From the IMG/VR virus record IMGVR_UViG_3300037130_000236: a stretch of 64,000 nt of DNA. One strand, 5' to 3'. The notes below the pieces were generated by a model. That model saw only the letters and a program-made list of their open reading frames with translations. It was not told the DNA's origin and made no database searches. Of the stretch, positions 30,089 through 38,194 are shown one piece after another. The stretch comes from a virus. Made by a program: the position numbers and the translations under genes. Position 1 is the first letter of the stretch; the number at the start of each line of letters is the position of its first letter.

Positions 30089-30355
30089 GGGCGCCCGAAG
30101 GCGCCCTTCTGTTGCCAGGCCAAGCAGACTTGGCCCCGTCTAGTCTTTCGGACTAGACAGCAGCAAGAACGCCCAGGGTGTTCTCCGCGGCCGTGGCCGG
30201 TTCGAAGACCTCAAACGTCATGCTGGCGACATACCCAGTGTTGGCATATATGCGTCTGTGTGTCCTTCTGCCGATCCAAAGATCGACACGGCAGCCACAC
30301 CACCCGGCTCGTCATCTCTATCCGTCACTGATTCCGTCGAAACCGTGACGGGCCC
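30089..30355 (-). ncRNA. ssrA: tmRNA coding piece (permuted gene); 3' limit approximate
   Basis: 5' GGGCCCGTCACGGTTTCGACGG, pseudoknot CTGCC/TGTC/GGCAG/GACA, resume context CATATAT-GCC, tag ANTGYVASMTFEVFEPATAAENTLGVLAAV* (30245-30153), stop inside the GTCTAGTC-CGAAA-GACTAGAC hairpin. Confidence 0.85.
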
Positions 30356-30421
30356 ACCAAAGCCCTCTCTGACTTACATTCCCCCGAAGTTCGGTGAACT
30401 TCAGCTAAAGCATGAGGGCTT

Positions 30422-30490
30422 TGGTGGACCCGGAGGGAATCGAACCCTCGTCCGAAATCGTGAAGACGATCTGTCTTCTCACGAGCGTTA
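30422..30490 (-). ncRNA. ssrA: tmRNA acceptor piece (permuted gene); 5' limit unknown
   Basis: ...GGACGAGGGTTCGATTCCCTCCGGGTCCACCA; pairs with GGGCCCG at 30355 to give a 7-bp stem with G3-U70; GCTCGT pairs with ACGAGC of the coding piece. Confidence 0.88.
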
Positions 30491-32519: not shown

Positions 32520-32662
32520 TGGGGGAGATGGCAGGATTTGAACCTGCAATTCCCGGGTCAGCTGCATTGCCCCGCAGCGTTACCGCTCTCGGTCACCATG
32601 CGTGACCCAGGAAACCGGCGCAAGACCGGCGGGCTATCCGATACCACTGCCAATCATCTCCC
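32520..32662 (-). ncRNA. 143-nt tRNA-like RNA with a His-type G-1:C73 acceptor and greatly expanded core
   Basis: GGGAGATG/CATCTCCC 8-bp stem + CCA; GCAGG-TTCAAAT-CCTGC T arm; AGTGGTA D-like loop; ~66-nt extra multibranch closed by TTCCTGGGTCA/TGACCCGGGAA. Confidence 0.75.
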
Positions 32663-35525: not shown

Positions 35526-35615
35526 TGGCAGGGGCGACAGGATTTGAACCTGCAGTGAACTTGCGTTCCGTGGCTTTGGAGACCACTGTGCCGAACCGGA
35601 TTGCACATCACCCCT
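35526..35615 (-). tRNA. tRNA-Trp(CCA) with an atypical long variable arm, CCA encoded
   Basis: AGGGGTG/CGCCCCT, GTGC/GCAC D stem, GTGGT-CTCCAAA-GCCAC, GAAC-GCAA-GTTC variable hairpin, G73-CCA. Confidence 0.88.
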
Positions 35616-37066: not shown

Positions 37067-37414
37067 TTACGCACCAGGACGGGATTCACAACCCGTATTC
37101 ACGCCCGCTTGTGGCTCCGGCTGCACCGGAACAAATTTGCTTCCCGACTCTCTCATCGCCGCGAGAATACGAGCAGCCCGTTCTGTATCAAAGCTCTCGG
37201 GACGGCCGTCGTAGCAGCCTGGAATTCTCCCCGTGCTTGCCCGATAGCAACGGCTTCTGATCTCGTCGGCCAATTTACGATCCGCTTCAGTCGGCGTCAC
37301 ATCGCATTTGAGACAGCGGTCGTTGACAATCTGATTGCAGCCGCAGCGATCGCAGAACGCATACCCATCAGCTCGATAGTTGATACCGTTCTTTAACGCA
37401 TACTCGTCCTGCAT
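37067..37414 (-). CDS. Hypothetical protein with CxxC pairs
   Basis: CDRCG...CLKC. Confidence 0.5.
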   Translation of the reverse strand: MQDEYALKNGINYRADGYAFCDRCGCNQIVNDRCLKCDVTPTEADRKLADEIRSRCYRASTGRIPGCYDGRPESFDTERAARILAAMRESGSKFVPVQPEPQAGVNTGCESRPGA

Positions 37415-37428
37415 TGTTTCTCCATTCA

Positions 37429-37559
37429 TGGTGGGGCAAGGAGGACTTGAACCTCCATGCAACGCCGGTCATGCAGCCCGGCTGCGCCTATCCTGCAGGG
37501 TTGAGCACTGTTGCGCCGGATTATCGGTCCGGTGTGTCTACCAGTTTCACCATCGCCCC
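37429..37559 (-). ncRNA. 131-nt tRNA-like RNA: Leu-type body, GAT anticodon, 59-nt variable region, CCA encoded
   Basis: GGGGCGA/TTGCCCC-A-CCA; GTG-AAACTGGTAGA-CAC D arm; CCGGA-CCGATAA-TCCGG; GGAGG-TTCAAGT-CCTCC. Confidence 0.82.
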
Positions 37560-38194
37560 ATTTGAGGAGCCGAGCCCAGAAGGCTTATTAGGCCAGCCCG
37601 GGCCCGGCTCCGAAGGTTCCGAAATTGGGTCACCTATCAAACCATCAGAGGGTTACACTGCGTTCGCCACCCACAATCGCCAGAATGCTGTGATTCACCG
37701 ATTAGCTCCATGCGCGCTATGAATTGACAGCTCACTTCCTGGGCCGTCCGAAGGCTTACCAGAGCGCGTACCACGGCTGGTTGGGGCATTCTCCCACCTC
37801 TGCTTCGTTGGTTCCGAAGAACCGATCTCGTGCCAGGGGACGGATTTGTCACCGTCATCTCTCCGGCGGATTAACGCGTCTCCGCAGGCCGCTCTACTTC
37901 TTGAGCTACTCCCGACTCAATACTTCAACCGGTGTGCTGTTACGCTAAAGAGTCCATGTCTCGCCTTACCAGGCCAGCCGCAGTTTGCGTAGCAAGAAAC
38001 GTGTCAACTGCGACCCGCGTGCCAATAGCGTTTGGCGTGAATGCAGCAATTCCCGGCGAGCAGCCGGCCTGCTTCATCTCTGCACCCCGAACTGCCACGC
38101 ATACCATTCCGATACGTCTCCGGCAGTCCCCGTGTCACGACTCACTCCTTGGAGGATGGCTGCTATCAAGCCAACCTTCCGGTTGAAGAACTTG

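What the first reader, a model, noticed from the sequence alone, without database searches (positions are those of the whole stretch)
37429..37559. Giant tRNA-like RNA no. 2: Leu body, Ile anticodon, 59-nt branched variable arm
Seen: all four canonical arms pair well and CCA is encoded; the D arm and A73 are Leu-like; the anticodon loop is CCGATAA (GAT, with C33 instead of U33). The variable region is closed by GCAAC/GTTGC and contains GCCGG/CCGGC. It shares the giant arm and C33 with the 32520 RNA, which suggests a family. Established: LeuRS ignores the anticodon and reads A73 plus tertiary shape. Inference: a Leu-for-Ile miscoder, a decoy, or a scaffold with a protein-binding arm.
Basis: partly seen in the sequence, partly recalled or inferred. 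Interest (0 to 1): 0.85.

Follow-up and report, generated by a model that had tools for sequence, protein, structure and literature searches.

The report
Phage leucine-type tRNA with giant arm
A peat-soil phage carries a real, conserved gene for a leucine-tRNA-shaped RNA with a 56-base branched extra arm. Its anticodon loop copies the host's isoleucine tRNA loop (arginine in sister phages) except for one normally universal base, so it probably acts in the phage-host fight over tRNAs and not in ordinary decoding.

Summary
On the minus strand at 37429-37559 lies a 131-nt tRNA-shaped gene (Rfam tRNA 47.4 bits; ARAGORN misses it). It has a leucine-type class II core, A73, an encoded CCA, the anticodon loop CCGAUAA (C33, GAU), and a 56-nt three-way-junction arm in place of the normal variable hairpin.

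I found it only in a narrow group of peat and permafrost phages or prophages. Four compensatory base-pair changes, one at the base of the arm, support the fold.

Sister phages carry the same body and arm, but their loop is CCACGAA (ACG) or CCACAAA (ACA). The GAU and ACG loops match the tRNA-Ile(GAU) and tRNA-Arg(ACG) loops of G001, the host of the ACG-type prophage, except for U33C.

C33 also occurs in 10 otherwise ordinary tRNAs, all in two tRNA arrays: one on a viral contig and one of unexamined origin in the G001 genome. It occurs in none of the other 273 tRNAs examined.

RNA-library contigs keep the arm, with no spliced form. They do not prove transcription or show the mature ends.

My best reading (about 0.4) is a nuclease-resistant mimic or stand-in for the tRNA whose loop it copies. 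A working armoured decoder is the main rival, and a deliberate Leu miscoder is unlikely.

This scan has noted other giant-armed phage tRNA-like RNAs on other DNA. I found none in Rfam or in the papers searched.

The parts
37429..37559 (-). The whole giant-armed tRNA-like gene (131 nt, G1 at 37559, CCA at 37429-37431)
   Evidence: Rfam RF00005 47.4 bits. Custom model R1 163.6 bits. Conserved in G002, G303, G001, L045, L081, L337 and L339.
37553..37559 (-). Acceptor stem 5' strand GGGGCGA. It pairs with 37433-37439 (UUGCCCC). A73 is at 37432.
   Evidence: Pair 7/121 changes A-U to G-C in L045.
37534..37550 (-). Leucine-type D arm (GUGA AACUGGUAG ACAC)
   Evidence: Pair 11/25 changes U-A to C-G in the ACG type. 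A 30-nt pattern spanning this arm and the anticodon arm (loop free) matches ordinary tRNA-Leu genes exactly.
37516..37532 (-). Anticodon arm: stem CCGGA/UCCGG, loop CCGAUAA at 37521-37527, triplet GAU at 37523-37525, C33 at 37526
   Evidence: The loop is CCACGAA in G001, L081 and L339, and CCACAAA in L045. The G001 tRNA-Ile loop is CUGAUAA and its tRNA-Arg(ACG) loop is CUACGAA.
37459..37514 (-). 56-nt branched variable arm. The base helix is GCAAC/GUUGC. Hairpin Va is GUGCU...GGCGC with a 15-nt loop that holds the palindrome CCUGCAGG. Hairpin Vb is GCCGG-GCUGCAUGA-CCGGC.
   Evidence: MFE fold. Pair 48/99 is compensatory, and pairs 53/75 and 56/72 change U.G to U-A. The two loops are invariant in all copies. 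The arm pattern was found in no other IMG/VR contig.
37440..37456 (-). T arm GGAGG UUCAAGU CCUCC
   Evidence: Pair 104/120 changes G-C to A-U in L045.
37560..37806 (-). Structured non-coding RNA block directly upstream, ending in a long hairpin 7 nt before G1. It accompanies the giant-armed gene in all three lineages.
   Evidence: Alignments. RNAalifold gives 47 pairs, 6 with compensatory changes. No Rfam match.
37067..37417 (-). Downstream Cys-rich 116-aa gene, with its GGAG ribosome-binding site immediately after the CCA end
   Evidence: Read from the sequence. It has no Pfam, NCBIfam or PHROG family. Its homologs mark the same slot in related phages.

Best explanation
This is a genuine phage gene for a tRNA-Leu-derived RNA that has been rebuilt in two ways.
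1. Its variable hairpin has grown into a 56-nt three-way junction.
2. Its anticodon loop has been rewritten to copy, base for base, the loop of tRNA-Ile(GAU) as seen in G001, or of tRNA-Arg(ACG) in sister phages. Only the normally universal U33 differs: it is C.

Working model (inferred). The RNA takes part in the tRNA-centred arms race between phage and host. It presents a target-like anticodon loop that enzymes depending on U33 or the U-turn cannot process, chiefly anticodon nucleases or loop-modifying toxins. It would therefore act as a resistant mimic that soaks up or outlasts the attack on that tRNA species. The bulky arm would stabilise the RNA and probably keep it away from normal ribosomal use or from host enzymes.

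Shown here: the gene, its fold, its Leu ancestry, the loop swap, and the recurrence of C33 in tRNAs of two tRNA arrays.
Inferred: the enzyme it faces, and that it does not decode.
For: - It is a real, selected RNA. Rfam tRNA scores 47.4 bits. Four compensatory pairs lie in four helices, including the arm base, and 98.4% of cells are paired. The two arm loops are invariant.
- The body is Leu-derived. Its nearest host tRNAs are Leu. A 30-nt pattern spanning its D arm and anticodon arm, with the loop left free, matches hundreds of ordinary tRNA-Leu genes exactly. The base of the arm sits exactly where the Leu variable hairpin sits.
- The loop is the variable, functional part. Between the GAU and ACG types, 3 of 3 triplet positions differ, against 9 of the other 128 positions. 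Positions 32, 33, 37 and 38 and the whole stem are unchanged.
- Both loops equal the tRNA-Ile(GAU) and tRNA-Arg(ACG) loops of G001 apart from U33C. Both types occur in contigs of one metagenome (L337 and L339).
- C33 is not random decay. Of 283 distinct tRNAs in all held loci, 10 have C33. All 10 lie in two tRNA arrays, one on a viral contig and one in the G001 genome.
- Co-resident tRNA-shaped RNAs in this phage lineage cannot decode. The 32520 RNA has a loop of 7 or 8 nt. Relatives carry tRNA-likes with 44-51 nt in place of the anticodon loop.
- The neighbourhood fits nucleic-acid conflict. A SpoU methyltransferase, a NADAR protein and a non-specific endonuclease lie in the window. RtcB and RlaP lie beside the homologous slot in more distant phages.
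- Published context: phage tRNAs are proposed or shown to escape anticodon nucleases through loop changes (PMC10264068, PMC11555353). Large inserts in the variable loop leave only marginal tRNA activity (PMC7590224). U33 enforces the U-turn needed for ribosome binding (PMC13276492).
Against: - No nuclease or toxin aimed at tRNA-Ile(GAU) or tRNA-Arg(ACG) was identified in any host.
- The ACA loop in L045 copies no natural tRNA loop. That copy also carries two helix mismatches and may be drifting.
- A pure decoy would not obviously need the intact acceptor stem, A73, CC(A) end and T loop, yet all are conserved.
- The other ten C33 tRNAs look like working decoders, so C33 by itself does not mean non-decoding.
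- The comparison rests on five distinct sequences in three lineages.
- The expression evidence is only RNA-library contigs that also cover the neighbouring genes.
Confidence: 0.4

Rival explanations
1. Armoured working decoder. The RNA is aminoacylated and used on the ribosome as the phage's own spare tRNA for the heavily used AUC/AUU codons (CGU/CGC/CGA in sister phages). C33 and the big arm protect it from host tRNA-targeting enzymes. The anticodon, U36-A37-A38 and A73 would steer charging towards IleRS (or ArgRS), despite the Leu-type core.
For: - The loop is a perfect natural anticodon loop apart from position 33, with purine 37 and the U36-A37-A38 motif needed for t6A (PMC13276492).
- All core, T-loop and acceptor features and the CC(A) end are conserved.
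- C33 recurs in ten otherwise ordinary tRNAs in two tRNA arrays.
- Hairpins inserted at the variable position recur in tRNAs that keep their own identity sets: Trp(CCA) at 35526-35615 with A1-U72 and G73, and Lys(UUU) of 89 nt in G001.
- The triplets match the most used Ile and Arg codon families of these phages: 47 and about 43 per 1000 codons.
Against: - The same Leu-type body carries Ile, Arg and Cys-type triplets.
- By my own knowledge of the E. coli identity sets, the Ile pairs (C4-G69, U12-A23, C29-G41) are absent, and position 20 is U where ArgRS needs A20. LeuRS ignores the anticodon, so Leu charging is the default expectation.
- No natural decoder is known with an arm of this size, and engineered tRNAs with about 50-nt inserts are barely active (PMC7590224).
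Confidence: 0.25
2. Carrier or scaffold. The tRNA body serves only for folding, processing and perhaps aminoacylation. The conserved three-way-junction arm binds a phage protein, such as the adjacent Cys-rich protein or the SpoU methyltransferase, or locks two copies together through its palindromic loop. The job would be off the ribosome.
For: - The arm loops are invariant in all copies, while stems vary with compensation.
- Loop 1 carries the 8-nt palindrome CCUGCAGG and is complementary over 5 nt to loop 2 (read from the sequence).
- The gene always travels with a structured upstream RNA and abuts a conserved small Cys-rich gene.
Against: - It does not explain why the anticodon loop copies real tRNA loops and is swapped between sister phages.
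- No partner protein was identified, and the Cys-rich gene also occurs in phages that lack this RNA.
Confidence: 0.15
3. Deliberate Leu miscoder. LeuRS charges the RNA, and it inserts leucine at Ile (or Arg, Cys) codons as a programmed form of mistranslation.
For: - Leu-type core and A73.
- LeuRS does not read the anticodon (established knowledge).
- Natural mismatched tRNAs exist elsewhere, for example CUG-clade yeast tRNA-Ser(CAG), bacterial tRNA-Pro variants and allo-tRNAs (PMC5389517).
Against: - The phage's own genes use the affected codons at 4-5% of all codons. Neither the GAU type nor the ACG type avoids them.
- Leu for Arg or Cys would damage phage proteins.
- C33 and the 56-nt arm should weaken ribosome use (PMC13276492, PMC7590224).
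Confidence: 0.07
4. Processing punctuation or decaying gene. The cloverleaf survives only as an RNase P / RNase Z cleavage signal that separates the upstream RNA from the downstream mRNA. Alternatively it is a tRNA gene on its way to loss.
For: - It sits inside an operon-like run, 7 nt after a long hairpin and 11 nt before the next start codon.
- No sigma-70 promoter or intrinsic terminator was found nearby.
- The terminal A of CCA is missing in the ACG and ACA types.
Against: - Purifying selection reaches the anticodon stem and loop flanks and the arm loops, which a cleavage signal would not need.
- The loop swap reproduces real tRNA loops.
Confidence: 0.08

Closest known systems
Bacterial class II tRNA-Leu (Rfam RF00005)
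   Same: It shares the 7/5 acceptor/T architecture, the Leu-type 3-bp D stem and AAYUGGUAG D loop, A73, and an extra arm that leaves the core at the same place with the same flanking bases (C before, AU after). A 30-nt pattern spanning its D arm and anticodon arm, with the loop left free, matches real tRNA-Leu genes exactly.
   Different: The anticodon is GAU, ACG or ACA, not a Leu anticodon. Position 33 is C, not U. The arm is a 56-nt three-way junction, against a hairpin of about 11-15 nt.
Phage tRNAs with anticodon-loop changes that escape host anticodon nucleases (van den Berg et al. 2023, PMC10264068; Azam et al. 2024, PMC11555353)
   Same: It is phage-borne. Its loop copies a host tRNA loop with a single substitution. 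Its content differs between close relatives, as expected in an arms race.
   Different: Those are otherwise ordinary tRNAs whose body matches their anticodon. Position 33 and giant arms are not part of that description. No cognate nuclease is known here.
Engineered aptamer-tagged and V-Spinach tRNAs (Mukai 2020, PMC7590224)
   Same: An extra structured RNA is grafted at the variable arm of an otherwise complete tRNA.
   Different: Those are man-made. Small hairpins stayed active, and a roughly 50-nt aptamer left only marginal activity. This one is natural and conserved.
Natural tRNAs whose body and anticodon disagree (allo-tRNAs, PMC5389517; from my own knowledge, CUG-clade yeast tRNA-Ser(CAG) and bacterial tRNA-Pro variants with Ala/Thr anticodons)
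   Same: A body read by an anticodon-blind synthetase carries a foreign anticodon.
   Different: Allo-tRNAs have 8/4 or 9/3 acceptor/T branches, whereas this one is 7/5. None has C33 with a giant branched arm, or swaps between two host-copied loops.
Non-decoding tRNA-shaped RNAs: the tmRNA tRNA-like domain, bacterial Y RNA YrlA (PMC4201824) and, from my own knowledge, the stable species 1 and 2 RNAs of the T4 tRNA cluster
   Same: These are tRNA mimicry used outside ordinary decoding. Some are phage-encoded and sit among tRNA genes, and a permuted tmRNA lies 7 kb away in this window.
   Different: Those lack a normal anticodon arm. This RNA keeps a complete one. It has no Rfam match to tmRNA or YrlA.

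Membership tests
tRNA (Rfam RF00005) | Full cloverleaf scoring above the family's gathering threshold (29 bits) | tested here: met
   47.4 bits over model positions 1-71, with the arm treated as an insertion.
tRNA (canonical decoder) | U33 before the anticodon and a purine at 37 | tested here: not met
   C33 in all copies of all three lineages. A37 is present.
tRNA (canonical decoder) | Variable region within the natural range (4-5 nt, or a single hairpin of up to about 24 nt) | tested here: not met
   56-nt branched arm, 59 nt with flanks.
tRNA-Leu (class II) | Leu-type D arm, A73, and a long arm placed as in tRNA-Leu | tested here: met
   Alignment with host and phage tRNA-Leu. The nearest G001 tRNAs are Leu. 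Pattern scans support this.
tRNA-Leu (class II) | Leucine anticodon (NAG or NAA) | tested here: not met
   GAU here; ACG and ACA in relatives.
tRNA-Leu (class II) | Charged by LeuRS | not testable with these tools
   Needs an aminoacylation assay.
tRNA-Ile(GAU) | Anticodon loop CUGAUAA and A73 | tested here: inconclusive
   6 of 7 loop bases match (U33C), and A73 is present.
tRNA-Ile(GAU) | Class I body with a 4-bp D stem and the E. coli identity pairs C4-G69, U12-A23, C29-G41 (my own knowledge of the identity set) | tested here: not met
   The body is class II, with G4-C69, G12-C23 and G29-C41 (read).
allo-tRNA | 8/4 or 9/3 acceptor/T-stem composition (PMC5389517) | tested here: not met
   7-bp acceptor and 5-bp T stem.
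Intron-containing tRNA | An insert removed from the transcript: a group I intron in the anticodon loop, or a bulge-helix-bulge intron | tested here: not met
   The insert lies in the variable arm and is only 56 nt. No intron family was found in Rfam. RNA-library contigs from three runs span it unspliced, and no joint skips it. RtcB was not found in the two near-identical viral records, which are 58% and 83% complete. Contigs cannot exclude a rare spliced form.
tmRNA / YrlA-type tRNA mimics | Match to the family model; the anticodon arm replaced by other domains | tested here: not met
   No Rfam hit on this stretch at E up to 1 other than tRNA. The anticodon arm is complete.

The most novel reading that the evidence does not exclude
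The giant-armed RNA is a ribosome-active tRNA of a private phage decoding channel. It would be charged through its Leu-type body, or through a phage factor docking on the arm, while reading Ile or Arg codons. C33 and the arm would make it invisible to host tRNA-targeting immunity. Sister phages would retarget it simply by swapping the triplet. That would make it a natural, modular, re-addressable tRNA chassis.
Probability: 0.08. Interest if true: 0.9.

Novelty: new variant of a known kind. Interest (0 to 1): 0.62.

Why it matters
If the reading is right, phages do more than carry spare tRNAs. They rebuild a tRNA chassis in three ways: they remove the universal U33, bolt on a large folded arm, and swap in the anticodon loop of whichever host tRNA is at stake.

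That would point to host enzymes that attack tRNA-Ile(GAU) and tRNA-Arg(ACG) and that have not been described.

It would also offer a functional reason for C33, a feature normally treated as an error. In this sample C33 was found only in tRNAs of two tRNA arrays.

Finally, it would give synthetic biology a natural example of a tRNA that tolerates a 56-nt graft.

Even if the function differs, this is an uncatalogued, conserved RNA class that standard tRNA finders miss.

Tried and rejected
- **ARAGORN.** It does not call the gene, here or in any homolog.
- **Rfam.** At E up to 1 over 26-40 kb, nothing but tRNA matches this stretch, and nothing matches the upstream block.
- **GenBank phage collection.** BLAST of 3 kb around the gene gave no match.
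- **Loop-free pattern of D arm plus anticodon arm.** They yielded only near-identical extra copies.
- **Arm-specific patterns in IMG/VR.** They found only the same two proviruses.
- **Bacterial genomes.**
  - BLAST over 301 genomes of the G001 family found the gene only in G001.
  - The covariance model over 151 relatives found the same. That set includes the unpublished genomes G397, G402, G403, G404, G406 and G408, which contribute only to this negative count.
- **Splicing idea.**
  - No joint across the arm appears in four RNA libraries.
  - The RNA contigs cover the whole phage region, so they do not prove specific expression or show the mature ends.
  - One joint in the other RNA (32548 to 32649, one contig, 30-nt side) is too weak to use.
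  - RtcB and RlaP were not found in the two near-identical viral records, which are incomplete.
- **T-box-like idea.** No aligned triplet in the upstream RNA changes in step with the anticodon.
- **Attachment-site idea.** The gene lies between phage genes on both sides in the window and in the G001 prophage, not at an end.
- **Codon usage.** The codons read by GAU or ACG are neither avoided nor enriched in the respective phage types.
- **Promoter and terminator scan.** It found nothing relevant.
- **Single-sequence folding.** The z-scores are not significant.
- **Protein families.** Pfam, NCBIfam and PHROGs gave nothing for the adjacent Cys-rich gene.

Full report
**What is there**

The feature lies on the minus strand at 37429-37559. 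Rfam's tRNA model matches it end to end (47.4 bits, gathering 29, E 5e-7 for the window) and treats 56-57 nt as an insertion at the variable position. ARAGORN does not report it.

Read 5' to 3', the parts are:
- acceptor GGGGCGA/UUGCCCC
- U8 G9
- a leucine-type D arm (GUGA / AACUGGUAG / ACAC)
- anticodon stem CCGGA/UCCGG with loop C32 C33 G34 A35 U36 A37 A38
- C45
- an arm from GCAAC to GUUGC (RNA positions 46-101)
- A and U
- T arm GGAGG-UUCAAGU-CCUCC
- A73 and an encoded CCA

The arm folds as a three-way junction:
- a 5-bp base helix
- hairpin Va (GUGCU/GGCGC) with a 15-nt loop
- hairpin Vb (GCCGG/CCGGC) with a 9-nt loop

Folding energy alone is unremarkable (z = -1.2 for the whole RNA, +0.16 for the arm). 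The case for the structure therefore rests on comparison.

**Where it occurs**

The window is part of a large phage or prophage. Around the gene lie RecD2, a ligase, thioredoxin, a SpoU methyltransferase, NADAR, a non-specific endonuclease and a permuted tmRNA.

Copies of the gene were found as follows:
- Two IMG/VR proviruses carry nearly identical copies: G002 (124 kb) and G303 (178 kb).
- One 6.1-Mb bacterial genome, G001, carries a 92% identical copy inside a related prophage.
- Peat and permafrost contigs carry further copies: L081, L089, L092, L097, L162, L337 and L339. L045 holds a more divergent one.

Wider searches found no more:
- BLAST over 301 genomes of G001's family found it only in G001.
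- A covariance model (R1) over 151 relatives, 91 of them in the same genus, found it only in G001. Every other hit was an ordinary 85-90-nt tRNA-Leu at 68-76 bits, against 164 bits for the real thing.
- Six unpublished genomes (G397, G402, G403, G404, G406, G408) contribute only to that negative count.
- Arm-specific patterns found no other IMG/VR contig.

The family is real but narrow in what could be searched.

**Is the fold selected?**

Six sequences, five of them distinct, were aligned (A4).
- With the full cloverleaf plus arm structure, 98.4% of cells are paired.
- Four pairs change on both sides and stay paired: 7/121 in the acceptor, 11/25 in the D stem, 48/99 at the base of the arm, and 104/120 in the T stem.
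- Two U.G pairs of hairpin Va become U-A.
- Only 2 of 500 shuffles reach these values, and slid controls collapse to 39-49% paired.
- Two pairs are broken in some copies: 49/98 in L045, and 78/96 in G002 and L045.
- A 1-nt deletion in the D loop of L045, together with the compensatory pattern, excludes a protein-coding reading.

The sample is small, so this is supportive and not conclusive.

**Ancestry**

The body is leucine-derived.
- With the arm removed, the closest tRNAs of G001 are Leu isoacceptors.
- A 30-nt pattern spanning the D arm and anticodon arm, with the loop left free, matched hundreds of ordinary tRNA-Leu(CAA/UAG) genes across bacteria exactly.
- The arm leaves the core where the Leu variable hairpin does, with the same flanking bases. 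Host Leu reads C-GCC-GAAA-GGC-AU, and here it is C-GCAAC...GUUGC-AU.

The arm is therefore an expansion of the loop of the normal Leu extra arm.

**The new and most informative result: the loop is swapped**

The three lineages share the body, the anticodon stem, C32, C33, A37, A38 and the arm. They differ in the triplet:
- GAU in the window type
- ACG in G001, L081, L089 and L339
- ACA in L045

Between the GAU and ACG types, all three triplet positions differ, against 9 of the other 128 positions.

G001's own tRNA-Ile(GAU) has the loop CUGAUAA, and its tRNA-Arg(ACG) has CUACGAA. The phage loops CCGAUAA and CCACGAA are those loops with only U33 changed to C.

Both types occur in contigs from one metagenome (L337 and L339).

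The loop therefore behaves as a functional, exchangeable cassette that imitates specific tRNAs. Neutral drift would not give this pattern.

The ACA loop matches no natural tRNA loop. It is known from a single contig that also has two helix mismatches.

**C33 is a recurrent trait of tRNAs in two tRNA arrays**

Of 283 distinct tRNAs, 273 have U33 and 10 have C33. All 10 sit in two tRNA arrays:
- a viral contig (L287): Ile-GAU, Val-UAC, Leu-GAG
- a 4.5-kb array in G001 (L332), whose origin I did not examine: Ser-GGA, Tyr-GUA, Glu-UUC, Thr-CGU, Thr-GGU, Phe-GAA, Pro-UGG

Hairpins inserted at the variable position also recur in tRNAs that are normally class I:
- The window's tRNA-Trp(CCA) at 35526-35615 keeps A1-U72 and G73 but has a 4-bp extra hairpin.
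- G001's array has an 89-nt tRNA-Lys(UUU) with one.

The RNA studied here is the extreme of a trend.

**Expression**

Six metatranscriptome runs from peat and permafrost hold 45-61% of the words of the 601-nt stretch around the gene.

Laid on the window, contigs from three of them span the gene with the arm intact:
- X17: 37400-37873
- X16: 37244-37550
- X18: 37119-37534

No joint skips the arm.

These libraries also cover the neighbouring protein genes, and contigs cannot show the ends or rare forms. The result argues against obligatory removal of the arm. It does not prove a stable 131-nt species.

RtcB and RlaP, which flank the homologous slot in more distant phages, were not found in the two near-identical viral records. 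Those records are 58% and 83% complete.

**Context**

Directly upstream lies a conserved structured RNA at 37560-37806.
- It is 247 nt in the GAU type and about 189 nt in the others.
- It has six compensatory pairs.
- It ends in a long hairpin 7 nt before G1.
- It accompanies the gene in all three lineages and has no Rfam match.
- No triplet in it covaries with the anticodon, so a T-box-like pairing is not supported.

Directly downstream, the ribosome-binding site of a small Cys-rich gene follows the CCA. That gene has no known family. It also occurs in phages where an ordinary tRNA, or a tRNA-like with 44-51 nt in place of its anticodon loop, occupies the upstream slot.

**How it most likely works**

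Shown here:
- a conserved tRNA-Leu-derived fold
- an exchangeable loop that copies tRNA loops
- invariant C33
- an invariant, structured arm

From the literature:
- U33 enforces the U-turn needed for ribosome binding (PMC13276492).
- Large inserts in the variable loop leave only marginal tRNA activity (PMC7590224).
- Phage tRNAs are proposed or shown to evade anticodon nucleases through loop changes (PMC10264068, PMC11555353).

From established knowledge, LeuRS does not read the anticodon.

Inference. The RNA offers the loop of a high-demand host tRNA in a form that enzymes depending on U33 or the U-turn cannot process. It sits on a stable chassis that is probably excluded from, or poor in, normal translation. 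It would act as a resistant mimic in the conflict over tRNAs (confidence about 0.4).

The main rival (0.25) is that it still decodes, as an armoured spare tRNA. The intact acceptor end, the natural loop and the other C33 tRNAs fit this view. The Leu body shared by Ile, Arg and Cys-type triplets does not, and neither does the size of the arm.

An efficient Leu miscoder is unlikely (0.07). The GAU-type phage uses AUC and AUU at 47 per 1000 codons, and the ACG-type prophage uses CGU, CGC and CGA at about 43 per 1000. Neither avoids them.

A scaffold or partner-binding role for the arm (0.15) is compatible with the invariant loops, the CCUGCAGG palindrome, and the 5-nt complementarity between the two arm loops. 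It leaves the loop swap unexplained.

**Comparison with what is known**

The RNA passes the tRNA family threshold. It fails three marks of a canonical decoder: U33, the size of the variable region, and agreement between body and anticodon.
- It is not an allo-tRNA, because it is 7/5.
- It is not a tmRNA or YrlA-type mimic, because its anticodon arm is complete.
- By the evidence available it is not an intron-bearing tRNA.

I found no description of such RNAs in Rfam 15 or in the papers searched.

Earlier notes of this scan report other giant-armed phage tRNA-like RNAs on other DNA. One is a tRNA-Ile(GAU) with C33 and a long arm. Another is a Lys-type family lacking U33, where a later check left only low odds for the bold reading. 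These are unverified leads. They suggest the phenomenon is wider than this phage group.

**Verdict**

This is a real and unusual gene. I rate it a new variant of the phage-tRNA and tRNA-mimic theme. It has one concrete new clue, the host-copied, U33C, exchangeable loop, which makes the function testable.

Noticed in passing
window 37560-37806 (-): A conserved structured RNA lies directly upstream of the giant-armed gene. It is 247 nt here and about 189 nt in the ACG and ACA lineages. It has six compensatory pairs and a long terminal hairpin, and no Rfam match. It always travels with the gene.
   Followed up: partly
window 32520-32661 (-): A second giant tRNA-like RNA with an 8-bp acceptor, C73 and CCA. 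Its anticodon-like loop is UCUUGCG here and the 8-nt CCUUGGCG in G001, and its arm has diverged strongly, so it cannot be a decoder. Its arm shows no sequence similarity to the arm at 37459-37514. One RNA contig shows a weak joint from 32548 to 32649.
   Followed up: partly
window 35526-35615 (-): A tRNA-Trp(CCA) that keeps A1-U72 and G73 but carries an inserted 4-bp hairpin (GAAC-GCAA-GUUC) at the variable position. This makes a class I tRNA look like class II. The G001 prophage has an ordinary tRNA-Thr(UGU) in that slot.
   Followed up: partly
L332 (G001:C5:707700-712200) and L287 (IMG/VR contig): Two tRNA arrays hold all 10 C33 tRNAs found among 283 distinct tRNAs: Ile-GAU, Val-UAC and Leu-GAG in L287, and Ser-GGA, Tyr-GUA, Glu-UUC, Thr-CGU, Thr-GGU, Phe-GAA and Pro-UGG in L332. 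L332 also has an 89-nt tRNA-Lys(UUU) with an inserted variable hairpin.
   Followed up: partly
L045:2874-2984, L043:2862-2982, L043:3878-4003: Related phages carry tRNA-like genes with intact acceptor, D and T arms but 44-51 nt in place of the anticodon loop. The L045 copy has G3.U70. They sit right upstream of the homolog of the Cys-rich gene. L043 also has a 126-nt tRNA-like with a tmRNA-like acceptor.
   Followed up: no
L011:1498-1588 (genome G191): An 88-nt tRNA with a leucine-type class II body and the same anticodon stem (CCGGA/UCCGG), but anticodon ACC with a normal U33. It stands alone next to an IS1595-family transposase gene.
   Followed up: partly
L096:2-109 (metagenome contig): A leucine-type tRNA with a CUA (amber-reading) anticodon and a 36-nt variable region.
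   Followed up: no
window 30218-30486 (-): A permuted (two-piece) tmRNA gene on the phage (Rfam RF04321, 70.7 bits). A counterpart lies in the G001 prophage (73.5 bits).
   Followed up: no
L038, L041, L043 and the P0008 contig: In more distant phages, the homologs of the Cys-rich gene sit beside RNA-repair genes (RtcB, RlaP), NADAR and a SpoU methyltransferase. RtcB and RlaP were not found in the two proviruses closest to the window.
   Followed up: partly
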